A DNA stretch of 63,635 nucleotides, counting the filler, from Folioceros fuciformis (lineage: Eukaryota): assembly GCA_049999805.1 (NCBI GenBank). It is 15 parts of 15 records of this genome, joined end to end, with 100 filler letters (N's around TTAATTAATTAA, not from the genome) between each part and the next. Parts side by side here need not be neighbours in the genome. Positions count along the whole stretch, not along the records: positions 45,888 to 53,807 come from JBNGIO010002204.1; 14 more parts are not named here. The stretch is one strand, 5' to 3'. This document shows positions 12,738 to 61,830 of the stretch, one piece after another. The position numbers were made by a program, and so were the translations under genes. Position 1 is the stretch's first letter. Each line of letters opens with the position of its first letter. Below the pieces are notes generated by a model. It saw only the letters and a list, made by a program, of their open reading frames with translations, had not been told where the DNA came from and searched no databases.

Positions 12738-14244
12738 TGTCAGTACTGAAAGGGTCGATAGAGGAGCATGGTGAAGCAGAGGAGAGAAGAAGAGAGGAGG
12801 AGAGGAGAAAGAGAGGTCTCACAGTGTCTCTCATAGCTCTATTGCAAAGGGAGCTCAAGAGGGTATTTATACCCTCTAGAAAAGCTCCCAAGGAAGATTC
12901 ACAAGAAGCTCACAGGAAGCTTCACAGGAAGCTATGCAGGAAGCTTCCTAAAGATTAGCTTAAGCTAATCTAAACTAATGATACTTAATTAGACACTAAT
13001 CTTAGACAAATCACAGTAATCTAATTAAACTAATCACATTAGTCTAATTAGACTAATCACATTAGTCTAATAAGACTAATCACATTAGTCTAATAAGACT
13101 AATCACATTAGTCTAATAAGACTAATCACATTAGTCTAATAAGACTAATCACATTAGTCTAAGCACATTGGGCTTTAATAACCCTACAACCACCCGCTTA
13201 AAGGCCAATTTACCTTCATAGGGGAGTGGTCTACCTCATGCCCATGAGTGTCCGAGCTTGTGCGAATTGCTCCGAAGAGAGCCCCTTGGTAAGAACATCT
13301 GCAAGGTTCTGACTAGTGTGAACTTTGACAAGTTGTACCCTCTTGTCTTCCAACACCTCTCGAATGAAGTGATACTTCACTTCCACATGTTTGGTCTTCG
13401 CATGAAACACTGGATTCTTTGCCAATTGAATAGCACTCTAGCTATCACAATGCAACACTGGCAGCTCAACCTTGATCCCTAAATCGCCCACTAGACGAGC
13501 AAGTCACATGGCTTCCTTGCATGCCTTAGTTGCTGCAACATACTCGGCCTCTGTAGTAGATAGTGTTATGCATGATTGCAAATGAGATCGCCATGAGATT
13601 GCCCCTCCTGTGCACATGAAGACGTAAGTAACCTGATGTGGACCTCCTTTTGTCCATATCCCCTACATAATCAGCATCCGTAAATCCCACGACAGATGCA
13701 TCTTCACTACCAAAACATAAGCACAAAGCTTTTGTACCATTTAAGTACCTCATAACTCCTTTCACTACCTCCCAATGCTTTCTGCCAGGGTTTGACATAA
13801 ACCTACTAACCACTCCCACTGAAAAGGCAATGTCAGGACGTGTAGCAATCATTGCATACATCAAACTCCCTACAGCTGATGAGTATGGAACCTTCTGCAT
13901 TTCAGCTTTGTCCTCCGCAGAGCTTAGGCAATCCTTGGTCAACAATTTCACATATGGAGGCAACGGAGTACTTAATACCTTTCCCTTCTCCATATTGAAA
14001 CGTTGAAGCACCTTGTTAATGTATTCAGTCTGAGACAAGTACAGCAAACGCTTCTGTCTATCTCGACGAACACGCATGCCAAGCATATGGCTTGCCTCTC
14101 CCAAGTTTGTCATGTGAAAGCGACTATTCAACTTTGACTTCACCGTTGAAATCTCATCACTGTTAGTCCCAGCAATTAGCATATCATGCACATAGAGGAC
14201 CAGAATGAGCAAGCTTCCATCCTTAGCTTGCTTCGTATAGAGGC
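12738..14244 (-). mobile_element. Ty1/Copia 3' part: RT/RNase H, PPT and 3' LTR (12738-13187)
   Basis: LVLYVHDMLI (YVDD variant), YSSAVGSLMYAMIATRPDIAF, KNPVFHAKTKHVEVKYHFIRE..NLADVLTK. A purine tract precedes the LTR start TGTAGGG at 13187 on the minus strand. Confidence 0.92.
13005..13165. repeat. Tandem array of a 23-bp palindromic unit inside the LTR
   Basis: AGACTAAT-CAC-ATTAGTCT(AATA) at period 23 (13051, 13074, 13097, 13120, 13143), plus degenerate units upstream. Confidence 0.9.
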
Positions 14245-14366
14245 NNNNNNNNNNNNNNNNNNNNNNNNNNNNNNNNNNNNNNNNNNNNTTAATTAATTAA
14301 NNNNNNNNNNNNNNNNNNNNNNNNNNNNNNNNNNNNNNNNNNNNACTAACACCACATGAGTTTAGC

Positions 14367-15634
14367 TCATATAGAGCTCGATAACTCAACATTCCATCCT
14401 TTAGCTGCTGCTAATGCTCTGATTGTCCTTACAGTTGTCATCTTGGCTACTGCACTAAAGGTTTCCTCATAATCAAGACCATACTGTTGTGCATATCCCT
14501 TTGCAACCAACCTGGCCTTGTAACGCTCCAGAGTTCCATCTGACTTGAACTTCAGCTTGTACACCCACTTAGAACCAATAGGAACCTTGCCATCAGGCAA
14601 TTGAACCAAATCCCACGTTTCGTTCTCAACTAATGCTGAGTATTTTTCATCCATGGCTTGACACCACTTATCATCTGTCACTGCCTCAGCAAACTTGGTT
14701 GGCTCCTTACAAGCTATGACCCTTGTCATATACGCATAATGTTGCGCATTGTAGCTTCTATAGGTGTACCTGTCAATGGGTTTCGTAACCCTCTCAGATC
14801 TCCTTGGTCTTGGTTCATTTTGAACCTGCCTTGCATATTGTTGCTCCTTAGCACCTGGCGTTTCCACAGACGGAATGCCAAACTCATTGTCAATGCTCTC
14901 ACTACTTGAGGATTCATATCCCTCATTTCCAGTTTTGCTGCTTTCTACTCTCCCCCTCACTGACATATCCAGGTTAGTGGTCTTCGATTTACCATTCCGC
15001 AGTCTTCTAGACCATGGATTCACCGTTGGTGATCCACCATTGGTCACATCCTCACTCTTTGCTGGAGTACTCTTAACAGTACTCTCCCCTGTGGGTTTGT
15101 CATAGGGTAGTGCAACTGAGTTGCTATACCAGGAGGCTAACTCATCAAATACCACATCCCTACTTATCAGGATCTCATGTGTGGATGGCACATAACACTT
15201 ATATGCCTTCCTATTTCGTGCATACCCCAGAAAAACACTCTTCACTGCTTTAGGATCCAACTTCCTACGCTTCTCATCAAGTACATGCACATATGCAATG
15301 CACCCAAACACTTTCAAGTGCCTAATATCCGGCTTATAGCCATACAGTCTCTCTCAATTGGTGTAGCATTATGAATTCCTGCCGTAGGAGTTCGATTCAG
15401 TACATACACTGCTATCATCACTGCTTCTGCCCAATAATCGTTAGGGAAGCACTTCTCATTCAGCATTGCCCTTGCTGTTTCCATGACTACCCTGTTCTTC
15501 TTCTCTGCAACACCATTCTGCTGTGGTGTGGATCTGCAAGTCAGCTGTCTTCGTATACCATGATCTGCAAGATACCTGTCAAACTCATTTGAGACATATT
15601 CTCCCCCTCCATCTGATCTTAGACAAGAGATGGA
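14367..15634 (-). mobile_element. Ty1/Copia integrase core to RT start (decayed)
   Basis: RSDGGGEY..TPQQNGVAE, KVFGCIAYVHV..RRKLDPKA, WVYKLK..RYKARLVAKGY..DYEETF. Confidence 0.92.
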
Positions 15635-17000: not shown

Positions 17001-18568
17001 CTGCATTTAGCTCTAGAATGGATGCATCCAGAGTGAACATCCGTCCATTCCTACTACCTTAGCAATCAATTTGCGCCCTCTGTCATATTCTTCAATAAAG
17101 CATCCATCTTTATTGAATCGAACCTGCAGATTTTGTTCAGCCATTTGTCCAACAGACAACTGGTTCTTCGTAATGGTTGGAACATGCAACACATCTTGCA
17201 GACTCTTCTGCTGACCATTCGGCATCCTAAGAGGTGTAGGGTTCTTAAAGCCCAATGTGCTTAGACTAACGTGTTTAGTCTAAGAGTAGTGTCTAATTAA
17301 TTACCATTAGTTTAAATTAGCTTAAGCTAATCTGAAGGAAGCTTCTTGTGCAGCTTCTCGTGGGCTTCTTGTGAAGTTTCCTAGGGAGCTCTTCTAAAGG
17401 GTATAAATACCCTCTTGAGCTCCCTTGTATGTGTGACTCTATTGTGAGAGTGTAACCTCTCTTTCTCCTCTCCTCCTTGCCTCCTCCTCTCCTCTCCTTC
17501 ACCATGTAGCTCCTAGAGCGTTCCTTCAAGAAGAACAATTCCTCTATGCTTTATGTCATGTTGTGTGTCATCTCCTGTACACACATGACCATGGGGACCT
17601 GCATCCATCTTGTTAAACCACTCGCCATGCGGAGTCATGTGGTTTGATGCTTCTGAATCAATGTACCATCTCTCATCATTCTGCCCATCCTGTTCAGAGA
17701 GATGTTGCATGGCAAACAACCTATCCTGGTCATTTCCAGCATTACTAGAGGAGGCATAGTTCTCATGCTGCCTTCCTTTTCCTTTCATGTCAGCTTGCTG
17801 CTTATAGCAGTCCTTAGCAATATGACCAACCTTACCACAGTAGTAACACTCCTTGTCTCTATTGGAATGGTCATGAGATTGAAAAGAACCATCTCTTCCT
17901 CTTGTGGCTCTACCTGCGCCTCTAAAACTTCCAGATTCTCTCTGGCCTTGCGCATTTCCTCCACGCCAATTGTCTTGCTGATTTTGCGTGTTCCGAGCAT
18001 CACCCCGTCCTCGGAATGAACCACGATCTCTGTGGCCTCTCCCACGCTGGTTAGAAAACAAAACAGTGTCTCTCCCTTGAGATATACCTGAACCTGTGTT
18101 CAGACCAAGCTTAACTTCCTCATGCAGCAAAAAAGCAACCAATTCATCCCAACTTGGGAACTCAAGTCTCACAGAGATTGATGTGTCAAAGGACTTGTAC
18201 TCCTTGCCAAGTCCATTCAGAGTAACTGCAACCATGTCATCTTCCGTCACACTTGCACTGATTGTAGCAAGCTGATCAGCTATGGTCTTCACCTCTGTTG
18301 TATACACGAGTATGGATCTGCTACCTCGTGACAAGTTGTTGAACTGTTGCTTCAACTGAATTTTCCTAGCATGTGTGACATTTCCATAGTTCCTCATGAG
18401 TATGTCCCATGCATCCTTCGGAGACTCACATCCCGTGATCTATATGACCATAGCATCTGAAATGCTTCAGGAGAGCCAGTGCAACACTTTACATGCTCTC
18501 TCAGTCCAATGCTTGTGAGCAGTCTTTTGCTCCTGTGATGGAGTACGATCCATCTCTGGTTCACTCTC
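17001..18568 (-). mobile_element. Ty1/Copia gag-protease region, interrupted by a solo LTR
   Basis: UBN2-type gag, zinc knuckle CYYCGKVGHIAKDC, protease WYIDSEASNHMT and VLHVP..NQLSV. Close paralogue at 33591-34696. Confidence 0.92.
17235..17528 (+). mobile_element. Solo LTR (Copia family A) inside Copia pol
   Basis: TGTAGGG..CTTCA flanked by AGAGG/AGAAG (TSD with one mismatch). Removing it restores HRGIV-PLRMPNG. Confidence 0.85.
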
Positions 18569-32399: not shown

Positions 32400-35300
32400 T
32401 GAACTCAAGGACTTGCACCTAAATGTGGAGGATCCTTGGAGAACTGATCCGGCTCTGCGGCACCCGGGCTCTCTTGCGTTTAGTCAGTCAAACCAACAGA
32501 GCAGCCCCATCCTGAGGGGACTGGATCGTATCTATATCCAATCCTCTCTGTTTGCCCGTGTGCAAACCTTTGCCATCATTCCTAGTACCGCCTTATCGGA
32601 TCATGCCCCGGTCTTGCTGAGCTTTTGCTGTTCGAAATCAGGTAACACCCCTACTGGCTCTGCAGGGAAGTTCTTCAGGATGAATACCTCTTTGCTCAAA
32701 CGTCCAGGGGTGTAAGAAGACATCAAGGATATCTTCACCAATTCTGCATTAATACCAAATACAATCCGCTGGACAAGTTTCTCAAAGCGTACAGGGAATC
32801 ATCTCAGTACCTCCGCAACCTAGGAACCAAGATCAAGTAGGAGGAAAGACGCGAGGAACAAGAGATTAGGTAGGTACTTGGTTCCTTGCAAAGACGAGCT
32901 AAAACTCAATAGCTCTCCCCAAAAGAATTCCAACAACTACAAGACGCTCTCTTCGCGGTGGATTCGTTTGAGGAACAAAAAGCTCAAGGCTAGTACAAAC
33001 GTGCCAAGGTGAAGTGGGCAGTGGAAGATGATTTGCCGAGACGTTCCTTCTTCAACATGCTGCACCAAAACCGTAGGAAAACCACCATCCCCCCTCTCCC
33101 GGATGCACAGGGCAACAGAATCTATGATCCGCGACTATTAAGACAGTTCATTGCTGGACACTTCAAGGATTTTTTCTCCTCCCTAGGCTCCCCCGATGGC
33201 TGGGAGGATAGGTGGAGTTGCTCCTATGGGAGCTACATGAGGAAAATCTCTAAAGTCCAAAGTCATGAGCTGGAAAGCCCTCTCAGCGTGGAAGAGCTTC
33301 ACCGGGCTCTGTTGGACATGCCGCTAGGTAAATCCCAAGGACCAAACGGAATTCCCAAGGAATTCTTTGTATAGGGCTGCAGATTCATGGAAAGCCCACT
33401 GCAAGCTGCGGTAGGGGACATCTAGGAAAGGAGCTCCATGGGACCGTCTGTAAACAAAAGTCTCATCACCTTGTTACCCAAGGTGCAGGCTTCATAGTCT
33501 ATTCTCAACTGGCGTCCAATCAATCTTCTTAACACACTGTACAAATTGCTTGCTAAGGTCCTCTCTAATCGCATCTCACATCTACTTCATGCATCCATCT
33601 TGTTAAACCACTTGCCATGTGGAGTCATGTGGTTAGATGCTCCTGAATCAATGTACCATCTCTCATCATTTTGCCCATCCTGTTCAGAGAGATGTTGCAT
33701 GGCAAACAACCTATCCTGGTCATTTCCAACATTACTAGAGGAGGCATAGTTCCCATGCTACCTTCCTTTTCCTCTCATGTCTGCTTGTTGCTTATAGCAG
33801 TCCTTAGCAATATGACCAACCTTTCCACAGTAATAACACTCTTTGTCTCTATTGGAATGGTCATGAGATAAAAAAGAACCATCTCTTCCTCTTGTGGCTC
33901 TACCTTCGCCTCTAAAACTTCCAAATCCTCTTTGGCCTTGCGCATTTCCTCCACGCCAATTGTCTTGCTGATTCTGCGTGTTCCGAGCATCACCCCGTCC
34001 TTGGAATGAACCACGACCTCTGTGGCCTCTCCCACGCTGGTTAGAAAACAAAATAGTGTCTCTCCCTTGAGACATATCTGAACCTGTGTTCAGACCAAGC
34101 TTAACTTCCTCATGCAGCAACAAAGCAACCAATTCATCCCAACTTGGGGACTCAGCTCTCACAGAGATTGATGTGTCAAAGAACTTGTATTCCTTGCCAA
34201 GTCCGCTCAGAGTAACTGCAACCATGTCATCTTCCGTCACACTTGCACCGATTGTAGCAAGCTGATTAGCTATGGTCTTCACCTCTGTTGTATACACGAG
34301 TATGGATCTACTACCTCGTGACAAGTTGTTGAACTGCTGCTTCAACTGGATTTTCCTAGCATGTGTGACATTCCCATAGTTCCTCATGAGTATGTCCCAT
34401 GCATCCTTCGGAGACTCACATCCCATGATCTATATGACCATAGCATTTGAAATACTTAAGGAGAGCCAGTGTAACACTTTACATGCTCTCGCAGTCCAAT
34501 GCTTGTGATCAATCTTTTTCTCCTGTGATGGAGTACGATCCATCTTCGCTTCACTCTCATCACCTGTGCAGCAGTCCCAATAGCCTCTACCTACCAAGAA
34601 GTTTTTCATCCTGAACTTCCACAAAGCAAAATTCTTGTTATCCAACTTCTCTCCCACAACCTGAGAGATATTGTCTGATCCCTGCACGTTAGCCATGATT
34701 CAAGCTCCTTTACGCACCAACACTTGTCCTACACCTTAGTTCAGTTGCCTTCTCTTGCTTGCTGTGCCACCAAGTCCCTTGTGGACAGATTGTCAAAACA
34801 CTTTCATGCGTCTTCCAACAGATGTTTTTGACAATCTTGAGTACAACTCCCTGCACTGCTATAGAGCTCCAGCACTCCACAAGCCTCAATCAAATCTCAA
34901 CAATTCCTAAATGTGCAGTTGACTCTTTGCTAAGCAAAAACAGCCTTTGCTCAAGCTTTCAAAAAACAAAAAAAACAGAACATTGTTTGCCAAGTTCAGG
35001 CCTTCCTCCTTGCAAATCCTGGGCCTGCTGTGGCTTCCACGGCCTGGTTGCCTCCAGTAGTTGCTGCTCTTCTTGAGTCTCTCTCCCTCTTGCGCCTCCC
35101 GGGCGCTCTTGCGCCTGTTGCAGCTTCCTACGCGCCTACGTCGCTACGCCTCTCAATGGCTTGCGTTGCGAGCCACCTTCACGCTCATGGCCATAGCCTC
35201 AAACCCCCACTATAGCTACCATGGCCGCCGGCGCTCTCTCTGGCTCTGATACCATGTTGAAATAGCACCACTAGCTTAGATGGACTCCACAGTACATTCC

Positions 35301-45887: not shown

Positions 45888-46450
45888 GGAGAAAAAGTGC
45901 AATATTGAGTATGTATAACATTGAGGAAGGAAAACAAGTGCAATATTGAGTATGTATAACATTGAGGAAGGAGAAAAAGTGCAATATTGAGTATGTATAA
46001 CATTGAGGAAGGAAAAAAAAGTGCAATATTGAGTATGTATAACATTGAGGAAGGAGAAAAAGTGCAATATTGAGTATGTATGACATCAAGAAAAAAGGGA
46101 AGAAAAAGGAGGAACATGTGACATAAAGATAAAAGAGGATTGAGGAAAGAGAGAATGTGCAACATAGAGGAAGAAGAGGATTGAGGAGAGAGAGAATGTG
46201 CAACATCAAGGCAAAAGAGGATTGAGGAAAGAGAGAATATGCAACATCAAGGCATAAGAGGATTGAAAAAAGAGAGAATGTGCTACATAGAGAGAGGAAG
46301 AGGAAGTACGACATTCAGGAAGGAGAAGAAATGTGATATCTAGGAAGGAGAGGAAATGTGACATCAAGGAAGGAGAGGAAGTTTGGCATCGAGCAAGGAG
46401 AGAAAGTGCAACATTGAATGGCAAGGAAGAGCAACATTGACGAAGAAGAA
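45888..46450. repeat. Minisatellite: five ~41-bp units decaying into related A/G-rich units
   Basis: GTGCAATATTGAGTATGTATAACATTGAGGAAGG.. at 45897, 45938, 45979, 46021 and 46062. Confidence 0.9.
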
Positions 46451-47879
46451 TTCGTACCCACAATGAGGAAGTGGCCACTTCGCACTGCTAACTACAATTT
46501 GAAGGTGTTGACCTTGACGAAAGTCTTTTTGATATAAACACAAGTTTATATATACCCTAAACACAAGTTAAAATTATATACAACTTTAATTTGACCAAGA
46601 TTCATTATCAAGAAAGTAATCAGACTATGGAGAAGAGAAGTTAGAAGTGATGAGACTATGGAGAAGGGGAATAAGAATCCAAAAGTCAAACTAATACATA
46701 GCTTTGATTTCAACAAGATTCTTGATGAAGAAAGTGATGAGACTATGAAGGATAAGGCTGAGAAGGATCAGGAAGCAAGATCAGGAAGCTTCTAACCAAC
46801 CTCCATGTGTGTTCTCGAGTGGGGAAACTAGCTCCCATTTGGATGGGGAACAATAGCAAGGCGAGATCCGCCAAATGACTTGTAGGCGCAATCCTGAAGG
46901 AGGCCACGAAATCCTATGCTTGGATACTAAACCACCGAATGAAGAGGGGTTGACACCAATTATGCGAGGAGAAAGTCCAAGGATAAACCAAGAAGAGTGG
47001 GATCCTAGGTGTTTGAAGCTCAAGGAAGGGGAATTGGAGGCTCACTACCAGGGGGCCACACTAACCTCTGCAGATATATGGGATGCATCCTGACATGGAA
47101 TCTGCTCACACGCAGATTTCTGGATGTTTTTGTTGGAAGAACTTGATTGACGGGCTGCCTATGCCAGGCAGCTTGGAGTCGGGTAAATCACACCAGGTGC
47201 TGCAGCGAGATATAAAGAATATCAATCCTTACAACTCTTGAGCCCAAATATGGCTCGAACAACAAAAGCAATTGAGTTTCTAAGATAGTAGCAAGCAGTC
47301 GACTTCGACGACTAGCGGTCTCCATCTCCATCTCCAGGGTTTAGCGTGGCAGCCATGGCTGATGTCAGTGATTTTGGTGCGGGCTTGCCTCTTTGAGTCA
47401 TGCTCATTTGGTTGGGCTCACACTCTCGATGTGGGCCCACAGGTTTCAGCAGCAGCTGCAAGCATGCCCTAATCCACGCTCTCTAGTTTTTGGTGTTTTA
47501 CTAATTACCGTTTAGTGTTTGCTAATTGCCAATATTTAAATGGTATTATCCTAAACTAATCCTTATTTAAAGGATAATTGTTTCACTCTGCTTACTCAAC
47601 CTTAAGCTCACCTTTGGTATCGTGACAGCGGTCGTGTGAGGCACACAGCAGACGGTCAAGCTAGTGATAAGTGTGGCAACCTCTACCCAGCAGCATCAAG
47701 CTGAATAGCACAGCACATACCAAAGAAAGTGGTAAGAAGGTTAGCATCACGCAAGGTGGTGAGCACTGGGAAATGTGGAACCCCCATCCCTGCCCCCCCC
47801 AGTTGATGAGAATAGCTGGCAAAACGAAAGGGCTCGTCCACGCCGGGTACCCATGCCCTCAACTAGCTGTAGAAACAAC

Positions 47880-48014
47880 ACACTGGGGGCAATACCATAA
47901 CTGTTCAGGTACCTTAGTCAGCGGCGGATCCAAGCAAAACAAATGGAATCCGCCATTGCATCCATCACAGAGCAGCATGAGCTCTGCATCATCTACCTTG
48001 CGACACACCGGGCA
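47880..48014 (-). pseudogene. PHD finger (C4HC3) at the integrase C-terminus
   Basis: CPVC..LMLLCDGCNGGFHLFCLDPPLTKVPEQLWYCPQC, in the same frame as the integrase. Confidence 0.93.
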
Positions 48015-51000
48015 AGGGTAATCCTCCGGAGGGACCCAATTGGCTGTGAAAATGGCGGGGTCCAAGTTGGGTAGGTGGTAGGGGGCACAATTCTTGGTGT
48101 GATCTGTAATAGTCTTGCCATCTGCCCCCTGTAGCAGCAGCACGCCGTTAGGTCTCACTTCCCTCATTCCCAGCACATGGCGGCTAGTGCTGGTGTCTAG
48201 TGTATCACCAGTCTATCGTTGCAAATACACAAAGTCCACAAATTGGAACTTCTTGAGTTTGGGCCTGAAACTTCCGCTCCTGGTATAGGCATACCTAAGA
48301 GTGTCCCTGTGTTGTGCAATGTGCAAATTTGCCATAGCCATGGGCATGACCTGCCTAAACATCGTAGCCCTCTCCCCAATGACTTTGGCCCATATAGCCG
48401 GACTGTCTAAGTCCGCCACCTACTGCAGTTGCTTGGCGATGGAGCTAGGTGGCATTGGCTCATGGCCAAAAAGTAGGAAATACGGTGAGAAGTGTGCCAA
48501 AGAGGCATGCTTACTCATCTGGTATCCTATTGTGATGTAGGGCAAGGCGAGATCCCACTCGATCTTAGGCATCTATAGACAGAGCTTCCTCAAGCCCTTC
48601 TTGAGTGTCTAGACCATTTACTCTGCAAGACCATCATCCTGAGGATGGTCTATGCTTGTCCTGCAATGATCTATCAACGCTGCATCCAATAGATCTTGGA
48701 ATTCACCCCTAAATTCTGACCCCCGGTCAGTTAAACATTCACCACATCTGCCGAAACGGTTGAGTACATTCTGCAAGAATGCTTGAGAGGTGCTCCTGGA
48801 CGTCTTGTCAGACAGTGCAACAGCCTCCACCCACTTGGAGAAATGCTCCATCGTGACAAGCACGTACACATTCCCACGTGTAGTGCGTGGCAGCTCCCTA
48901 ATCAGGTCACATGACCATCTGAAAAAGAGGCCCATGATAGGCAAAGGATGTAGCTCCGGGTGCCAGATGGTGAAGGAAGTCTTCACCCTGTCGCATGGCT
49001 CGCAGCAGGCAACCCACTCACGCACCTGACCATGCATCCCATGCCAATAAAAATGAGGGGCTAGTAGGTTGTAAGTGCGTTTGACGCCAAAATGACCCAT
49101 ATCATTGTGCACCTTACTAATTAGTGCAGCTCTGTCAGCTAGTGGCGGCACCAAGCGTTCAACTCCATGTGCCAGCTTCCTAATAACATAACCATCACGC
49201 CAGTAATATGTGGCAGCACGATGCTTGACCTGTTCAGCTGTGGTTGGTGGGAACGTCGCATCCAGCTGTCCTGTTTGCAGATACTGCAGTGTGTAAGGAT
49301 CCTCCCAAATGTCCTTAGCCAGTCGGGTTGGTACAGCTGTGCTGCCACAGTCGACACACACCATAGCCACCAGAGCAGCGACCTTGAATGGTTCATAAGG
49401 CTCATAATCCTGCCTTGCCTTGGTGATGTCTTGACAGCTGCTGTCTGGATTCCTAGAGAGAGTGGTTGCATTCTGATGCTTTAGAGCTGGTCTGTGAACC
49501 ACCTGGAAATCATAATCCTGAAGAATCATGGCCCATCGAGCTAGCTTGCTGTTGAGCTTTGTGTTGGCCATGAGCCACTTGAGGGGCAGGTGGTCCGTCA
49601 CCAGCGTATTCGCTTGTCCATAGAGATAAGGCCAGAAGTGGTAAACTGCCCAAACAGCGGCGAGGCATTCACCTTCATAACTGCTGTAATTGGCCTGCGT
49701 CTTGTTGTTGCTACCGGATGCATAGGCTATCACTCTCTCATTCCCTTCTTCATCATGCTGAGCCAAAACTGCCCCAAGGCCCAAGCTGCTCTAGTCTGTG
49801 TGTAGCACAAATGGCTGCTTGAAATCAGGTCTGGCCATCACAGGTGCAGAGGTCAACCTGGATTTCAGGGTATCAAACGCCTCCTGCATAGCCTCAGTCC
49901 AAGTCCATACCACGTCCTTCTTGAGTAGGTTATTGAGAGGCTTGGCAATATGGCTGAAGTTTTGGATATATATCCGATAATTATTGCAAAGGCCAAGGAA
50001 TGCTCGCAAGGCAGAGACTTTAGTGGGCTTCTTGACCTGCAGAATGGCCTGCACTTTAGTTGAGTGTGGCATTACGCTGTTGGGAACCACCCTGTGCCCT
50101 AAATATGCAACTGTATCCATACCAAATTCACATTTGGCTGGATGGCACTTGAGCTAAGCCTTCCTTAGGTGCTGGAAAAGGTCCTCCAAGTGTTCCAAAT
50201 GTGACTCAAAGTCCACACTGTGCACAAGGACATCATCTATGTAGCACAATAGGTTGGCTGACCCGGCCAAAACTGTCCATAACCCTCTGGAAGGTGACTT
50301 GAGCATTCTTGAAACCGAACGGCATCACAAGCCACTCCCACAGTTGCTGTGATCCGTGAAAGGCTGTCTTTTTTATGTCCTCTAGTGCCACTGGCACTTG
50401 GTTGAACCTTTGCCTTAGATCCAGTATGGAGAAGTAGACAGATCTACCGATGCTATTAAAGATCTCCTTCGGTGTAGGCATAGGGTACCTGTCCTGGGCT
50501 GTCACGGCATTGATAGGGCGATAATCGCCACACATTCTCTCCTCCGTCCATAAGGCTTGGCTATCCTTCTTGGGTGGCATGACAGTCGCAGCAGCGTAAT
50601 AAAAAATGGAAGGTCTGATTAGCCCTGCCTCACATAATTCCTTGCACCTTGCATCCACCATTTCTCACTCAAATTGACTCAATCGATACCTTCTGCGATA
50701 TATTGGCTTTGGGCTTGTGAGGTTGATCCTGAAGGTTGTGACGTTGTAGCGTTTCAACTCCTTCATGGAGAACGCGAAGCAATCACTGTACTTGAGAATC
50801 AATGCCCGAATCTGCCTCTGCTATTCATCAGTGAGCTATGGTCCCATGTGCCAGTTGAACGTTTCAGTAGTGAGTGGCACCTTGGTTGATGGCTCTTGCC
50901 TCACATCCACCTTGAAGGTCGATGCAGAAAAAACAAAGTGGTGCCAAGCAGCATACTCCCCCCCCCCCCCCTTGCATCAACCTTGAAAGGTAGGCAAGGA

Positions 51001-51089
51001 TAGCCAGGGAAAGGTAGGTGCACTGCATCTGCTGGACAAGCCATGGCTACAAGGCTTGCAAGGGTGCCTCTGGTTAGCAGTTGCAAAGC

Positions 51090-52045
51090 CAAGCATAAAC
51101 TCACAAGCCAAGTGATGTCGTGCAAGTCCATAGCTCGACCGATAGCAGCACAGCACTGAGAGACTATAACCTGCGGTGCTGCCGTGGCATGTGCTAGAAA
51201 GCCCATGATCTGCTCACGCTCCTCAATGTGGGGCTCTTCCCATTTCTTTGTGGTGGTGTTGTATAGCAATCTAGCGCCGTTGCTGCGATAGGCAAAGGAG
51301 CCAGGAAAGCTCACTAGGGTAGGCAATGTTTTGCGAGGTTGACCAGGTGTGTTGGTTGGATGCCAAGGTGGTCGCTCACTAGCAACCACATGCCTGGGTT
51401 CATGATTTGCATCCAACACATCCTGCAGCTGCAAGGTGGGATCCCGCTTCGTGTTGTGAAGCACAAGTGCCAAGAGTGAATTAGGGATGAGGTTGGTCCA
51501 GTAGTTGCGTAGACAGTGCGCATAACTACCCACCTGGACAACATCCAAAAGAAAGGGAGCACCAAGATGGTGCTCCACGACTGCCATGTCCTATCACACG
51601 GAGTCCCTCTTGTCAAGCTGAGCTGGGGTGTTCTCGAGGAGATAGCCACAATGTGGATTTTCCTGTTGCACCCATGCCAAGATCTTGTGCAGGTCTCGGA
51701 ACAACCCAGTGCGATGGTCCTCCAACCCCGCTCCTGCGCCTGCTTGGGAGAACCCTTGGAATTCCCAGCCAGCTATTAGCACGTCTACGGATCCCAGGGC
51801 CTGGATGTGGCCTTGTTGGATGTACTTGATGTCTTGAGGTAGTGCTGAGAATGTGGCAGCTAAGACTGCCTCCGATAGCTATGTGGGGAACCTGCTGCGG
51901 AGCTCCTGTAAGCGATGAGCAGCTATCTACCGTGCTTCCCCGCTGCTGTCACAATATACATAATGCCTGATAGGGAGGCCTGCCTTAAGCAAAGCCTCTA
52001 GGCCAGTACAAATGCCGCCAAACAGCTCCACGAGAAAAAGGCCGG
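51090..52045 (-). pseudogene. DNMT3-like C5-cytosine DNA methyltransferase domain within the retrotransposon pol
   Basis: Motifs in canonical order: I LVELFGGICTGLEAL; II YVYCD; III QDI; IV VDVLIAGWEFQGFSQAG; GLF; VI YLLENT; VIII AHCLRNYWTNL; IX EEREQIMGF; X IGRAMD. Same frame as the protease, with in-frame stops. Confidence 0.9.
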
Positions 52046-53198
52046 CGGCTGGGATAGGCCAATCAATCACTTGAGACTTGACATCATGCTCTTGCATGGG
52101 ATCCTTGAGTCCTCGCTGCAATAGATCTTGCACTTGCTAGACATGCTCGTAAGCATCTTCTAGCACACCCTCAACCTATGTGGGATGGTCAGCGGCCTTG
52201 ATCAGATTTGTCAATCTACATGTGGCTGTGGTGTTGCTGGAGTAGCTGTCACAATGCTCCTCCTCTTGCTTTGACTCTAGGTGGTCCGCATCCTGCAAAT
52301 GGTTGCTGGCCAAGGGTGTTCCCTCACTGACTAGGACTGTTGTACATGCTTGTCGCTCTACAAGTGTAGCTGTGTCAGCCTCTGAGATGTCATGCAACCA
52401 AAGGGGTAAGTGTGCCACCCTTCTCCCTCCTTGCTTCTAGTCTGGACGATAATACGCCTACTTTGTCCAGTTGTCCACACTTAAACCTGGTGGAAACAGA
52501 AATTCTTGCCCTAACAGCACGTCATAGTTTGTGGCTGTTGTCACTAGGCATGGAAGACTCAGCGTCATGGCATCTGGAGTGCCTGGCTTGAGTGTAATAT
52601 CCACAGGCTTAACAGTCACTTCGGCGACTGGCTCAATGGCTCCTGACGTTGTCCTTATGCTCCAAGGAGAGCTCTTGAGAGCTTAACCATCAAGGTTGAG
52701 CCTAGTAGCTAATGTCTTGCCAATGATCACTGGTTGAGCACCAGTGTCGAGCAATACAACCCTTGGGGCATACCCATTCACCGTAATATGCCCCGCATCA
52801 TTGTCAAAAAGTGCATTGCCGACTCTGACTGCTAGGCAGTTGGTGGGTTGGATCCTAAGAGAGCTAATGGGTTGAGCAGGCTGCCTTCCAACTGCTGCAA
52901 CTTCAAACATGCTTCCAGCTACTGTCTCCTTGGAGCAAGGTGAGATGCTAGCAGGTACCACCCACCCATCTGGAGCTAGTGGCCAGCATGATGCTCCTGA
53001 AGATAATACAGCTACTTGCGCTGGTTGCAATTCCTTGGGCAAATGCTCATGTCCTAGCCCCATGTCTTGCAAGGAAAATAGAGAAATGCCAATCCATTTC
53101 TCAGATAATTGTTCCACAGTGAAGGCCCTGGGCATCAAGTAGACTGGCCCACTGGTTGACACCTGTGGTTGCGGTGGAGGCTTGTTTATTGTCTGTGG

Positions 53199-53807
53199 TG
53201 ATAAAATGGCTTACTATTAGGGCACTGTTCACTAGAGCACCTAGGACTTAATAATTAATTTAATCCTTAGGGCTCTAGGTAGTTTCTTTTAGTAGTTATT
53301 TAATTGGTTAGTTGTTACAACCACTTAGAGGTTACAACAACCTTGCCTACATGAAGGCATGTACTTTTTATTATAAATCAATGCAACACACATTGCTTGA
53401 GCTTGTGTATGATTCTTATCATGGTATCAGAGCACACTTGCTCTTTGTTTTCTTGTGCATCTTCATGCATCTAAATAGCTTATTTAGGAGACACTTTCTA
53501 CTCTAGCATTTGCCTAGATGGATTGTGTTTATCCTAGAATTGTTATCTCTGCATGCATTTCTTTTATGCTAACATTTCTCTTCTAACAATGCTTTTATGC
53601 ACTAATTCTTTGTCCTTCTTCCATGGATTTGTGTTCCCTTAGAAGAAGAAGGCATATAGTTAAGAAGAGAGATAGTCCTGCAAGACAACAAGAACAAATT
53701 AGGAGTCCAACACATAAAAGCAATAGAAGACAACAAGCTATAGAGGGAGAGATAGAAGAAACCTCCTCTTGTATAGCAAATTTCATTGCATCTATTTTAA
53801 TTTCTAA
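53199..53807 (+). mobile_element. 5' LTR (53199-53421) and tRNA-Met PBS of an element inserted into the Gypsy 5' region
   Basis: TGATAA..TTATCA inverted termini, then TGGTATCAGAGC at 53422. Confidence 0.85.
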
Positions 53808-60274: not shown

Positions 60275-60767
60275 TGTCTCATGGCGTCTGGTAAGGTTGT
60301 GGGGAGGAGATATCCAAGAGGGGAGTGTGTTCCCTTCTTTCTTTTCTTTGGGGTTAGTCTAGTGACTCTTGCCAGGTAGGAGGAGTTAGCAGGGAAGTGT
60401 CGAAGGTAGTGGTGTCATTGTTAGTTGCTGGTGTTGGTGCTGGAGTGAGAGAGTGAGTGAAGCGAGTGAGGTAAGTCGCAGATCTAAGAGGTTAGGGTCG
60501 TTGTAGTGACTGGAGTGAGTTTGTGGGCACCAAGAGAGGTGCAGCTGACTGCCGGACAGCGAGGCCTGTCCTACGCCTGATCGGAGCTGGAGGGGAGGCC
60601 TCGAATCCATCATCGAGTCGATCAAGTCCGACCCTCCATCCACAGCAGCAAGGAACCCCATCGCTCCTTCGTGGGAACGAAACCCAATGTCTCAACGACA
60701 GTGGGATAAGCGTGGCCACTAAAGGTGGAACCCGTTGGCAATCAGTGCTCGGGGTTTTGCCTCCACA
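60275..60767 (-). mobile_element. LTR family B, copy 5 (partial), inserted in a Copia RT
   Basis: TGTGGAGGC terminus at 60767 abuts SKWVFKLK. Confidence 0.85.
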
Positions 60768-61830
60768 GTCCAAATGGGTCTTCAAGTTAAAGCTGCAAGC
60801 AGACAGTAGTATTGATAGATACAAAGCAAGGGTTGTTGCGAAAGGATACACAGAAATTCCTGGAGTGGACTATGACAATACATTTAGTCCAATCGTCAAG
60901 CTAACAACACTCAGATTGTTTGTGGCACTTGTAGTAGTGGGAGACTATGATCTGGAACAGCTAGATGTGACCACTGCATTCCTATATGGGAACCTCCAAG
61001 AGGAAATCTATATGACAGAGCCCTCAAGAGTTGACATTCCACACAACCTGCAAAATCTAGTCTGCAAGCTGCATAAATCCTTGTATGGGCTCAAATAGAG
61101 CCCGAGGGCCTGGTACTCACGTATAGACAACTATCTCAAGTCAATTGGCTATGAAAACATCAATGCTGATAGCAATGTCTATATAAAGCGAGGAGGGAGA
61201 GAGTTTTTAGCACTTGCCATATATGTCGATGATATACTTATAATGAGTAACTCCCTTCGGATGATAGAAGAATTGAGACAGCAGCTAAGCAAGGCAGTGA
61301 AGATTACTACAGGAGGTGCTCTGGAGTTTTGCCTTGGCATGCAGTTGTTACCAAACCTCAAGAATGGAACTATATTCCTACATCAGACAAAATACGCATA
61401 AGAAATCCTTGCTAGATTTGAAATGAGTAACTGCAAACCCATCTCAACACCTATCGAGCAAAACACCAAGTATTATGCACAGGTGGGTGACATACCTGCA
61501 GAGGACGCAAAGAAGGTACAACAATATCCCTCCAGAAATGGAAGCGTTATGCACCTGATGATAGGATCTCGTCCAGACCTTGCATTTAGCTCTAGCCTGA
61601 CCTCAAGGTTTGTTTCAAACCCAAACCTCCACCATAACGCTTTGATGACAAGGCTCTACAGGTATATAGCAGCCACCTACGACTGGGGCATCCTGTACAG
61701 CTCAAAATCCAAAAATGCATTGTAGTTAGTGGCTTACAGTGATGCCAACTAGGCCGCCGACCCTGATAGCAGAAAGAGCGTCTCTAGCTATGTTACCTTG
61801 CTTGCTGGAGGTGTTGTGTCCTGGAGCTAA
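60768..61830 (+). mobile_element. Ty1/Copia RT and start of RNase H (decayed)
   Basis: KWVFKLK..RYKARVVAKGY, QLDVTTAFLYG, LHKSLYGLK, IYVDD, SRPDLAF. Several stops. Confidence 0.92.

What the first reader, a model, noticed from the sequence alone, without database searches (positions are those of the whole stretch)
47786..53198. Gypsy retrotransposon encoding its own DNMT3-like cytosine methyltransferase
Seen: ORF fragments 52683-53162 (protease), 52176-52418, 51927-52133, 51594-51782 and 50901-51587 share one frame, separated only by point stops. Together they spell a full C5-MTase (ELFGGICTG; AGWE[F]QGFSQAG; LLENT; AHCLRNYWTNL; EREQIMGF; IGRAMD) between PR and RT, without introns or insertion scars. 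It is therefore an integral pol domain, not a captured host gene. Motif VIII-X wording resembles DNMT3/DRM (AHRARYFWGNL, E.ER..GF) in unpermuted order. Established: DNMT-carrying retrotransposons were reported in dinoflagellates and the charophyte Klebsormidium (de Mendoza et al. 2018). I know of no characterised case in a vascular plant, nor one combined with a PHD finger. Inference: a protease-released MTase could methylate the new cDNA or the insertion site (camouflage, self-regulation or epigenetic editing of the host).
Basis: partly seen in the sequence, partly recalled or inferred. Interest (0 to 1): 0.93.

Follow-up and report, generated by a model that had tools for sequence, protein, structure and literature searches.

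The report
Dead gypsy retrotransposon carrying DNMT3 domain
This is a broken copy of a plant-lineage jumping gene that encodes its own DNA-methylating enzyme domain; the family was already described in a green alga, so the find extends a known oddity to a probable land plant.

Summary
Observation confirmed. The window is 15 contigs joined by spacers. On the minus strand of one 7.9-kb contig (45888-53807) lies a degenerate Ty3/gypsy element. It reads PR-DNMT-RT-RNase H-IN-PHD, followed by a polypurine tract and a candidate 696-bp LTR.

The DNMT stretch passes Pfam PF00145. A profile of it plus relatives hits DNMT3A/B/C (E 3e-24 to 1e-20), far ahead of DRM, M.HhaI and DNMT2. Its AlphaFold model superposes on DNMT3 catalytic domains.

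This copy is dead. It has stops, two frame changes and no gag. It also has private replacements of the catalytic Cys and of a motif VIII Arg, which 148 and 149 of 150 relatives keep. Two DNA runs of the same organism hold many diverged copies, and all contigs that cover the catalytic codon read Cys.

It is not a new kind. A Klebsormidium nitens protein and Closterium proteins show the same gag-PR-DNMT order, and the window falls on their side of the DNMT and RT trees. A commoner second architecture (RT-RH-DNMT-IN-PHD) exists in public data.

New here are a probable land-plant host and a PHD finger of the unmodified-H3-reader type. Enzyme activity is untested; the Klebsormidium domain showed none in yeast.

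The parts
47091..47786 (-). Candidate 3' LTR (696 bp, TG...CA ends)
   Evidence: The sequence starts with TG right after the purine run and ends ...TGTCA. In runs X1/X2 repeat-level depth stops at 47092; below that lies a unique contig at depth about 7-11. There is no second LTR on the contig to confirm it.
47787..47803 (-). Polypurine-tract-like run directly upstream of the LTR candidate
   Evidence: Read directly from the sequence. Its function is inferred.
47880..48014 (-). PHD finger at the C-terminus of pol (ORF 47859-48212, no stop inside)
   Evidence: Pfam PF00628, E 8.3e-14, 51.8 bits. The nearest solved PHDs are KDM5/Lid, BAZ2B, KDM5D, CHD4, KMT2D, WSTF, UHRF1/2, PHF21A and AIRE.
48279..49316 (-). 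Integrase (H2C2 zinc finger, rve core, C-terminal part), with 4 stops counted over 48399-49790
   Evidence: Pfam Integrase_H2C2 60 bits and rve 48.7 bits. Collinear with P0102 residues 1514-2181. Stops counted.
49407..50324 (-). C-terminal RT and RNase H
   Evidence: Pfam RT_RNaseH 103.4 bits and RT_RNaseH_2. tblastn with relatives.
50233..50664 (-). RT palm/fingers, in a different frame from the rest (two frame changes)
   Evidence: Pfam RVT_1 49.2 bits. Frame read from ORF coordinates.
50901..52136 (-). DNMT3-like C5 cytosine methyltransferase domain (core about 51000-52109). It has 4 internal stops. Phe stands at the catalytic Cys position of motif IV, and Cys at the first Arg of motif VIII.
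52137..52457 (-). PR-DNMT linker (3 stops)
   Evidence: Collinear with P0050 and P0090 in one alignment that runs from PR into DNMT.
52458..53210 (-). Aspartyl protease region (LLDTGA), 2 stops
   Evidence: Pfam Asp_protease_2 22.6 bits, below its cut-off. tblastn to the PR of type B relatives, E 2e-10 to 6e-14.
53211..53807 (-). Upstream A+T-rich stretch up to the contig end. It is still at repeat-level depth, with no recognisable gag.
   Evidence: Depth 80-128 in X1. No tblastn match to the gag of P0102, P0131, P0165, P0050, P0090 or P0122.

Best explanation
SHOWN. The stretch is a dead, 5'-truncated copy of a multi-copy Ty3/gypsy LTR retrotransposon. Its pol encodes a DNMT3-type cytosine-5 methyltransferase domain between protease and reverse transcriptase, and a PHD finger after integrase. 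It belongs to the Gypsy-DNMT3 lineage first described in Klebsormidium nitens. It sits on the branch with PR-DNMT-RT order ('type B'), which also occurs in Closterium. The commoner RT-RH-DNMT-IN-PHD order ('type A') is a separate branch.

INFERRED. In intact family members the domain would be made as part of Gag-Pol and packaged with the RNA. It would then methylate the newly made cDNA or the DNA around the integration site. The PHD finger, which resembles readers of the unmodified histone H3 tail, would tether integrase (and the MTase) to chromatin lacking H3K4 methylation.

My odds: the identity and architecture, about 0.95. DNA cytosine methylation by intact copies, about 0.55.
For: Domain identity:
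- PF00145 scores above its gathering cut-off.
- The profile of A1 (window plus 31 relatives) against PDB gives DNMT3A 3e-24, DNMT3B 6e-21, DNMT3C 1e-20, NtDRM 2e-12, M.HhaI 5e-9, DRM2 2e-8 and DNMT2 3e-3. No DNMT1 or CMT chain appears at E <= 0.01. The match has three collinear segments: motif I, motifs IV-VIII and motifs IX-X.
- The AlphaFold2 model has pLDDT 84.5 and pTM 0.83. Its best Foldseek PDB hits are DNMT3B/3A/3C, E about 4e-16, target TM about 0.8.

Integral to pol:
- P0102/P0191 (2188/2327 aa) and P0196 (2138 aa) are single ORFs with CCHC-(PR)-DNA_methylase-RVT_1-RNaseH-Integrase; Pfam finds the PR in P0102/P0191 but not in P0196.
- P0050 residues 1021-1609 align in one piece to 52766-51081 (E 3e-74).

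Family size and constraint:
- phmmer against 1.84 billion representatives gives 1302 hits at E <= 1e-3 and 208 at E <= 1e-30.
- In 150 relatives the motif IV Cys is kept in 148, the motif VI Glu in 150, and the motif VIII Arg residues in 149 and 147.

Lineage:
- DNMT tree, FastTree, 151 rows: all 12 PR-DNMT rows, 11 rows of unknown order and the window stand against all 127 others, support 97.
- IQ-TREE, 52 rows: the same split, SH-aLRT 90.
- RT tree, 65 rows: the window pieces and 4 type B rows form a clade, support 100.
- P0122 is K. nitens GAQ93235.1 with CCHC-PR-DNA_methylase. P0186, P0058 and P0090 are Closterium proteins.

Many copies in the host:
- In runs X1 and X2, 728 and 571 contigs lay on the contig at 85-100% likeness.
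- Summed depth is 80-418 (X1) over 47208-53807, against about 11-13 over the unique flank 46152-46943.
- The DNMT bins (81-306) are as deep as the RT/IN bins (98-251).
- At the catalytic codon, all contigs that cover it (7 in X1, 5 in X2, 3 in X3) read Cys where the window reads Phe (read).

PHD type. That these solved PHDs read unmodified H3 is recalled, not tested.
Against: - No activity has been shown for any Gypsy-DNMT3 domain. KnitGypsy-Dnmt3 gave no de novo methylation in yeast; the authors call this inconclusive because human DNMT3B also failed (PMC5890265, section 10).
- Motif IV reads E-C rather than the canonical P-C in 89 of 150 relatives, so the chemistry may be altered.
- The window copy itself cannot work: stops, frame changes, two catalytic residues replaced and no gag.
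- With the better model the window's DNMT branches at the A/B node rather than deep inside type B. Its best identities (39-40%) are to type A rows.
- The full-length type B relatives P0191, P0196 and P0186 lack a PHD signature, so the window combines features of both groups.
- The trees are unrooted, because no cellular DNMT3 sequence could be added. One acquisition followed by a move therefore cannot be told from two captures.
- The depths are sums over contigs and are not copy numbers (tool caveat).
- The host being a land plant rests on one gene on another contig of the same record.
Confidence: 0.8

Rival explanations
1. The DNMT domain of this retrotransposon lineage no longer methylates DNA. 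It would serve another role, such as RNA methylation, DNA or chromatin binding, or a structural part in the particle, while keeping the fold.
For: KnitGypsy-Dnmt3 showed no methylation in yeast. Motif IV is E-C instead of P-C in 89 of 150 relatives.
Against: The catalytic Cys, the motif VI Glu, both motif VIII Arg residues and motifs IX/X are kept in 147-150 of 150 relatives that are only about 35% identical overall. That is the pattern of an active C5-MTase. The yeast negative is inconclusive by the authors' own control.
Confidence: 0.2
2. The contig comes from an alga or other streptophyte that contaminates or accompanies the sequenced plant. The element would then not be a land-plant element at all.
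For: All named relatives are from streptophyte algae: K. nitens and Closterium. The land-plant marker (a PPR-E-DYW gene) lies on a different contig of a record made of 15 short contigs.
Against: The family gives hundreds of contigs at summed depths 8-40 times the unique flank in two DNA runs labelled with one organism, as expected for a major repeat of the main genome. G+C (0.475) and CpG depletion are within the range of the other contigs. The window is only 32-35% (DNMT) and 45-57% (RT/IN) identical to the algal proteins.
Confidence: 0.12
3. The arrangement is an assembly chimera, or a host DNMT3 pseudogene that lies by chance inside a gypsy element.
For: The contig is short (7.9 kb) and comes from a fragmented assembly. 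No listed contig of the runs spans the whole stretch.
Against: One reading frame runs from PR through DNMT to the RT border. Twelve independent relatives, three of them full-length single ORFs, have the same order. DNMT and RT trees agree. The DNMT part is as repeated as the rest.
Confidence: 0.02

Closest known systems
KnitGypsy-Dnmt3 of Klebsormidium nitens (de Mendoza et al. 2018, PMC5890265; passages and sections 9 and 10 read)
   Same: Both have an intronless DNMT3-like domain with unpermuted motifs inside the Pol of a Ty3/gypsy element. A K. nitens protein (GAQ93235.1 = P0122) has CCHC-PR-DNA_methylase, the same order as the window, and lies on the window's side of the DNMT tree.
   Different: The DNMT is only about 36% identical to the window's. 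The host here is probably a land plant. The window has a PHD finger after IN; the word PHD does not occur in the paper's main text, the domain order is only in a figure that is not held, and supplements are closed. The paper reports DIRS-like repeats (A-coding-B-A-B); here only one LTR-like repeat is on the contig.
Type A relatives, RT-RH-DNMT-IN-PHD(-extra C-terminal domain); unnamed public proteins such as P0002, P0006 and P0008
   Same: They share the same DNMT lineage (36-40% identity), the same gypsy RT/IN lineage and the same PHD finger after IN.
   Different: The DNMT sits between RNase H and IN rather than between PR and RT. This order is clade-specific in both trees. Type A carries about 240 further residues after the PHD that the window lacks.
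SymbioDIRS-Dnmt3 of Symbiodinium (same paper)
   Same: It has a DNMT3-type domain inside Pol, and two coexisting domain orders were reported. It is the only retrotransposon DNMT3 with shown de novo CG methylation.
   Different: It is a DIRS element with a tyrosine recombinase and a dinoflagellate host. The authors regard it as an independent acquisition.
Cellular DNMT3A/3B/3C catalytic domains
   Same: They are the best sequence-profile and structure matches, with the same motif order I, IV, VI, VIII, IX, X.
   Different: Identity is about 18-20%. The element has no PWWP or ADD module; a PHD finger sits about 1,000 residues away at the other end of pol. Motif IV is often E-C.
Chromoviruses (gypsy elements with a chromodomain after IN), and the EpiLTRs of the 2026 preprint 10.64898/2026.05.21.726589 (section 8 read)
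   Same: All carry a chromatin-reader module fused to the C-terminus of integrase. EpiLTRs also carry a DNMT.
   Different: The EpiLTR DNMT is reported as sister to DNMT4 and is appended at the 3' end of pol.

Membership tests
C5 cytosine DNA methyltransferase (Pfam PF00145) | Profile match above the curated cut-off | tested here: met
   27.4 bits (piece) and 23.6 bits (read-through) against a cut-off of 22.
C5 cytosine DNA methyltransferase (Pfam PF00145) | Catalytic Cys of motif IV | tested here: not met
   The window copy has Phe. 148 of 150 relatives have Cys, as do all run contigs that cover the codon. The loss is private to this copy.
C5 cytosine DNA methyltransferase (Pfam PF00145) | Motif I (FxGxG), motif VI (ENV-type Glu), motif VIII (RxR), motifs IX and X | tested here: inconclusive
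   Motifs I, VI, IX and X are present. The first Arg of motif VIII is replaced by Cys in the window, though it is kept in 149 of 150 relatives.
C5 cytosine DNA methyltransferase (Pfam PF00145) | Methyltransferase fold | tested here: met
   Model pLDDT 84.5. Foldseek top hits are DNMT3 catalytic domains at E about 4e-16.
DNMT3 subfamily | Closer to DNMT3 than to DNMT1, CMT, DRM, DNMT2 or bacterial enzymes | tested here: met
   Profile against PDB: DNMT3A/B/C 3e-24 to 1e-20, DRM 2e-12 or weaker, HhaI 5e-9, DNMT2 3e-3, and no DNMT1 or CMT at <= 0.01. This is a ranking of scores, not a phylogeny.
DNMT3 subfamily | Unpermuted motif order (unlike DRM) | tested here: met
   Three collinear segments align to DNMT3A residues 9-52, 68-186 and 245-286.
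DNMT3 subfamily | Placement inside the DNMT3 clade in a tree with all eukaryotic DNMT families | not tested
Ty3/gypsy LTR retrotransposon | Pol order PR, RT, RNase H, IN with RVT_1 and rve domains | tested here: met
Ty3/gypsy LTR retrotransposon | Two LTRs, PBS, PPT, gag | tested here: inconclusive
   A PPT-like run and one TG...CA repeat-bounded LTR candidate are present. There is no second LTR and no gag on the contig. The 5' end lies beyond the contig.
Gypsy-DNMT3 lineage (KnitGypsy-Dnmt3) | DNMT3-like domain inside the Pol ORF of a gypsy element, shared descent with the K. nitens element | tested here: met
   The window lies on the same side of the A|B split as K. nitens GAQ93235.1 (support 97 in FastTree, 90 in IQ-TREE). 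Both have the PR-DNMT order. That GAQ93235.1 is a KnitGypsy-Dnmt3 copy is inferred from species and architecture.
Gypsy-DNMT3 lineage (KnitGypsy-Dnmt3) | DIRS-like repeat arrangement A-coding-B-A-B | tested here: inconclusive
   In other copies the LTR candidate is followed directly by its own start: joint 47790 to 47092, in 2 contigs of X1 and 1 of X2, with a neighbouring 47788-to-47092 variant, 1-2 letters between. This could be such an arrangement or tandem LTRs.
Gypsy-DNMT3 lineage (KnitGypsy-Dnmt3) | Purifying selection on the DNMT among copies (Ka/Ks < 0.2 in the paper) | not testable with these tools
   No genome is held, and the reads could be laid only once, as short contigs.
Chromovirus | Chromodomain after integrase | tested here: not met
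   The C-terminal module is a PHD finger (PF00628).

The most novel reading that the evidence does not exclude
A land plant, possibly a fern or lycophyte, carries a high-copy and until recently mobile branch of the Gypsy-DNMT3 retrotransposons. On this reading the branch was inherited from streptophyte algae (Klebsormidium, Closterium) into embryophytes. It pairs a transposon-encoded de novo cytosine methyltransferase with an unmodified-H3-reading PHD finger on integrase. It would be one tip of a very large and almost undescribed radiation (over 1,300 sequence clusters, two domain orders). Its intact members would write 5mC on their own cDNA or insertion sites, and so add a transposon-borne input to plant methylomes.
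Probability: 0.3. Interest if true: 0.7.

Novelty: new member of a known kind. Interest (0 to 1): 0.45.

Why it matters
Retrotransposons that encode the enzyme class normally used to silence them are known from only a few algae, and their purpose is unresolved.

If the host is a land plant, this copy shows that the lineage survived the move to land and reached high copy number. That would be in a group with well-studied methylation pathways (DNMT3, DRM, CMT), where methylomes of young insertions can be compared directly.

The searches also show that the family is far larger than the single published case. It comes in two clade-specific domain orders, and it is often coupled to a PHD finger. 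Together these give concrete material for testing whether such elements methylate their own cDNA and where they integrate.

Tried and rejected
- Whole-genome search for other copies: no genome is held for this window.
- Second DNMT copy inside the window: none found by tblastn.
- LTR pair on the contig: none. The only direct repeats are the spacers and short tandem repeats.
- gag upstream of PR: no match with six type B polyproteins.
- Expression: no RNA holder is listed. The one run guessed to be RNA (X4) gave 8 short, mostly partial pieces. This says nothing either way.
- Host taxon: Rfam and tRNA scans found nothing. The protein atlas on a Closterium DNMT part gave only sub-threshold phage MTase clusters (score 0.78). 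On the PPR gene it gave Streptophyta only.
- Rooting the DNMT tree with cellular DNMT3: not possible. The PDB tool returns no usable sequences, and the 150 listed representatives consist largely or wholly of transposon-type proteins: of the 182 of 187 stored relatives with a hit, 136 carry RT, IN or PR next to the DNMT (or lack it) and 46 show the DNMT alone.
- Repeat structure of the type B loci L005/L006: repeats 12.4 and 14.0 kb apart point to nested or neighbouring elements, and I did not resolve them.
- Earlier notes of this scan: none for this genome or for this sequence.
- Literature on land-plant or Zygnematophyceae cases: searches found no paper. Only PMC5890265 and the preprint 10.64898/2026.05.21.726589 use the family's names. 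The library lacks most subscription journals, and supplements were closed, so a mention in a supplement or a fern genome paper cannot be excluded.
- Rows dropped before the trees:
  - Six near-identical cluster mates were left out of both trees.
  - DNMT hits shorter than 270 residues were left out of the DNMT tree.
  - P0096 was left out of the RT tree by a length filter.
  - For the 52-row tree I kept the window, 21 B-side rows (dropping P0182, a long branch, and P0103, identical to P0100) and 30 of the 81 rows of sure type A order, chosen by hand to span the deep branches. The other 97 of the 127 A-side rows were left out.
Full report
WHERE IT LIES. The window is not one molecule. It is 15 contigs joined by N44-TTAATTAATTAA-N44 spacers. 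The finding lies in the contig 45888-53807 (7,920 bp, G+C 0.475). No whole genome is held for the window, so everything about other copies comes from public reads and public proteins.

OBSERVATION. On the minus strand the pieces 52683-53210, 52176-52436, 51927-52136, 51594-51878 and 50901-51590 share one frame and are separated by single stops.
- Pfam finds DNA_methylase above its curated cut-off: 27.4 bits on the 94-aa piece and 23.6 bits on the read-through, against a cut-off of 22.
- Pfam also finds RVT_1, RT_RNaseH, Integrase_H2C2, rve and a strong PHD finger downstream. Upstream is a sub-threshold aspartyl-protease match with an LLDTGA site.
- The order on the element strand is PR, DNMT, RT, RNase H, IN, PHD.
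- After the pol stop come a purine run and a TG...CA stretch (47786 down to 47091). Its lower end coincides with the point where repeat-level read depth stops. This is a candidate 3' LTR, but no second LTR is on the contig.

WHAT THE DOMAIN IS.
- Against solved structures by sequence alone, the window's stretch already ranks DNMT3C/3A first (E 0.005), ahead of M.HhaI (0.12).
- A profile of the stretch plus 31 relatives (A1) gives DNMT3A 3e-24, DNMT3B 6e-21, DNMT3C 1e-20, tobacco DRM 2e-12, M.HhaI 5e-9, DRM2 2e-8 and DNMT2 3e-3. No DNMT1 or chromomethylase appears at E <= 0.01. The match to DNMT3A has three collinear segments: motif I, motifs IV-VIII and motifs IX-X. The motif order is therefore unpermuted, unlike DRM.
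- The AlphaFold2 model from that alignment is confident (pLDDT 84.5, pTM 0.83). Its best Foldseek matches in the PDB are DNMT3B, 3A and 3C catalytic domains (E about 4e-16, target TM about 0.8).
- 'DNMT3-like' is therefore supported by score ranking and fold.

THIS COPY IS DEAD.
- The main frame 47859-53210 holds 28 stops. Some of these lie in the RT stretch that is out of frame. By region: 2 in PR, 3 in the linker, 5 in the 412-codon DNMT stretch counting the terminal one, 4 in RH-IN and none in the PHD ORF.
- RT 50233-50664 is in another frame, which means two frame changes.
- No gag is detectable.
- Two catalytic positions carry private replacements. Phe stands where 148 of 150 relatives have the motif IV Cys. 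Cys stands where 149 of 150 have the first Arg of motif VIII.
- CpG is depleted (observed/expected 0.37, against GpC 1.2).
- 351 of 487 listed differences between this copy and other copies in run X1 are transitions. This is the usual decay of a methylated plant repeat.

A FAMILY, NOT AN ACCIDENT. One search of public runs found two DNA runs of one coded organism that hold parts of the stretch. Laid on the contig:
- 728 (X1) and 571 (X2) short contigs fit at 85-100% likeness. In X1 these split into 114 at 99% or more, 255 at 95-99%, 264 at 90-95% and 95 below 90%.
- Summed depth is about 11-13 (X1) and 7 (X2) over the unique flank 46152-46943. It is 80-418 (X1) and 34-261 (X2) from 47208 to the contig end.
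- The DNMT bins (81-306 in X1) are as deep as the RT/IN bins (98-251).
- No listed joint skips the DNMT as a whole.
- The tool warns that such sums are not copy numbers. They do show many diverged copies that include the DNMT part.
- At the catalytic codon, every contig that covers it (7 in X1, 5 in X2, 3 in X3) reads Cys.

RELATIVES AND ARCHITECTURE.
- The word-indexed search for longer proteins gave 16 polyproteins, 33-40% identical over the DNMT.
- The exhaustive phmmer search gave 1302 representative clusters at E <= 1e-3 and 208 at E <= 1e-30.
- In the first seven relatives checked, the order was RT-RH-DNMT-IN(-PHD), not the window's.
- Of 187 stored relatives, 182 had a domain hit. Of these, 91 have the DNMT after RT/RH ('type A'). 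A further 25 have the DNMT directly before IN. In 12 the DNMT comes after PR and/or before RT ('type B'). In 46 only the DNMT is seen, and 8 lack it. Some rows are near-identical cluster mates, so these are not independent counts.
- Type B includes full-length single ORFs: P0102/P0191 with CCHC, Asp_protease, DNA_methylase, RVT_1, RNase H and Integrase, and P0196 with the same set except that Pfam finds no protease in it.
- Type B proteins are collinear with the window from PR into the DNMT in one alignment (P0050, E 3e-74), and from RT to IN (P0102). The window's order is thus a natural, recurrent architecture.
- Two degenerate type B loci with a PHD finger also turned up in long metagenome contigs (L005, L006).

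TREES.
- In a FastTree of 151 DNMT rows, all 12 type B rows, 11 rows of unknown order and the window stand on one side of a branch with support 97. All 127 others, including every type A row, stand on the other side.
- IQ-TREE with a site-heterogeneous model on 52 rows keeps that split (SH-aLRT 90). It places the window at the base, next to the A/B node, in line with its best identities being to type A rows.
- In an RT tree of 65 rows, the window's two RT pieces and four type B rows form a clade with support 100.
- The domain order is therefore a lineage trait, and DNMT and RT tell the same story. This favours one acquisition followed by a move inside pol over two captures. Without a root this is an inference. 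The 2018 paper reports a precedent for such shuffling: two domain orders of SymbioDIRS-Dnmt3.

WHO THE RELATIVES ARE. Four type B proteins carry names in NCBI.
- P0122 is GAQ93235.1 of Klebsormidium nitens, with CCHC, protease and DNA_methylase in that order.
- P0186 and P0058 are from Closterium sp. NIES-54, with a cluster mate in NIES-53. P0090 is from Closterium sp. NIES-68. Closterium belongs to the Zygnematophyceae.
- K. nitens is the species in which de Mendoza et al. 2018 described KnitGypsy-Dnmt3: an intronless DNMT3-like domain in the Pol of a gypsy element, with Ka/Ks < 0.2 (PMC5890265, section 9).
- The window is thus a member of that published lineage, not a new kind. The paper's text does not give the domain order or mention a PHD finger. 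The figure is not held and the supplements were closed.

HOST.
- Another contig of the record carries an unbroken 845-codon PPR-E-DYW reading frame (2437-4974, minus strand). Its nearest atlas clusters are plant DYW-type PPR proteins, labelled Streptophyta.
- From general knowledge (recalled), such editing factors are typical of land plants and nearly absent from streptophyte algae. I put the host being a land plant at about 0.8.
- Nothing here tells a fern or lycophyte from a bryophyte.

PHD FINGER.
- It is intact in this copy (no stop in 47859-48212).
- It is closest to the PHD fingers of KDM5/Lid (9e-16), BAZ2B, KDM5D, CHD4, KMT2D, WSTF, UHRF1/2, PHF21A and AIRE. The H3K4me3 reader TAF3 comes far lower, at 1e-6.
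- From memory, most of the top hits read the unmodified H3 tail. That is a lead for peptide assays, not a result.
- A PHD after IN is common in type A: 71 of the 182 relatives show IN-PHD. It is absent from the full-length type B proteins P0191, P0196 and P0186. The window therefore combines the type B order with a PHD.
- PHD fingers in retrotransposons in general are known (passage in PMC6673714).

MECHANISM.
- Shown: a DNMT3-fold domain with all catalytic residues is conserved across a very diverse retrotransposon lineage, inside Gag-Pol.
- Inferred (the hypothesis of the 2018 paper): it travels with the particle and methylates the new cDNA or the insertion site. The PHD would steer integrase to chromatin without H3K4 methylation.
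- Against: the K. nitens domain gave no methylation in yeast, although human DNMT3B also failed there. Motif IV reads E-C instead of P-C in 89 of 150 relatives.
- I put DNA methylation by intact copies at about 0.55, and another role for the fold at about 0.2.

NOVELTY.
- Full-text searches for the family's names found only the 2018 paper and a 2026 preprint that cites 'streptophytes (Gypsy-DNMT3)'.
- Searches that combined DNMT3, gypsy, ferns and lycophytes, or Closterium and Zygnematophyceae, found nothing relevant.
- The probable land-plant host, the size of the radiation, the two clade-specific domain orders and the PHD coupling appear unreported in that library. The kind of element is known, and this copy is a fossil.
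- Verdict: new member of a known kind, of moderate interest.

Noticed in passing
window 1-63635: The window is a chain of 15 contigs (1.0-10.3 kb) joined by N44-TTAATTAATTAA-N44 spacers. Neighbouring features on different contigs are therefore not linked.
   Followed up: yes
window 2437-4974 (-): An unbroken 845-codon PPR-E-DYW reading frame (Pfam PPR, E_motif, DYW_deaminase). It is a plant-type organelle RNA-editing factor, and I used it as the marker for a land-plant host.
   Followed up: partly
window 47092-47790: In other copies the LTR candidate is followed directly by its own start: a 'goes back 699' joint at 47790 to 47092 in 2 contigs of X1 and 1 of X2, plus a neighbouring 47788-to-47092 variant in both runs, with 1-2 purine-strand letters between, each contig at roughly single-copy depth. 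This could be tandem LTRs, integrated circle junctions, or the DIRS-like A-coding-B-A-B arrangement reported for KnitGypsy-Dnmt3.
   Followed up: no
run X3 laid on window 45888-53807: The differences of X3 (same sample as X1/X2) are mostly C>T (163) and G>A (87), unlike the balanced transitions of X1/X2. Several such changes are seen in X3 only. It looks like a cytosine-conversion (methylome) library. If so, it could show the methylation state of this family.
   Followed up: no
relatives P0002, P0006, P0008 (C-terminal about 240 residues; P0024 is that part of P0002): Type A elements carry a further conserved domain after the PHD finger, with a DPWCG-type glycine-rich motif. Pfam gives only a sub-threshold hint to D12-class N6-adenine DNA methyltransferases (E 0.18), and PDB gives 'Methyltransferase' at E 0.11. 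If real, these would be elements with two methyltransferases, like the EpiLTRs of the 2026 preprint. The window lacks this domain.
   Followed up: partly
alignment of 150 DNMT relatives: The residue before the catalytic Cys is Glu in 89 and Pro in 50 of 150 relatives, on both sides of the A/B split. This is an unusual motif IV (E-C-Q) for a C5-MTase.
   Followed up: no
window 13526-15353, 17513-18439, 33758-34429, 60496-61098: Fragments of Ty1/copia elements (RVT_2, Retrotran_gag_2, SH3_retrovirus, zf-CCHC) lie on four other contigs.
   Followed up: no
window 45890-46270: A tandem array of a 41-bp unit lies in the unique flank next to the element. Pieces of it are the only part of the contig well covered in run X4.
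   Followed up: no
L005 4536-12411; L006 9311-17183: Two near-identical degenerate type B elements (PR-DNMT-RT-RH-IN-PHD, with about 2.8 kb inserted inside IN) lie in 50-kb and 68-kb metagenome contigs. A second gypsy fragment follows each.
   Followed up: partly
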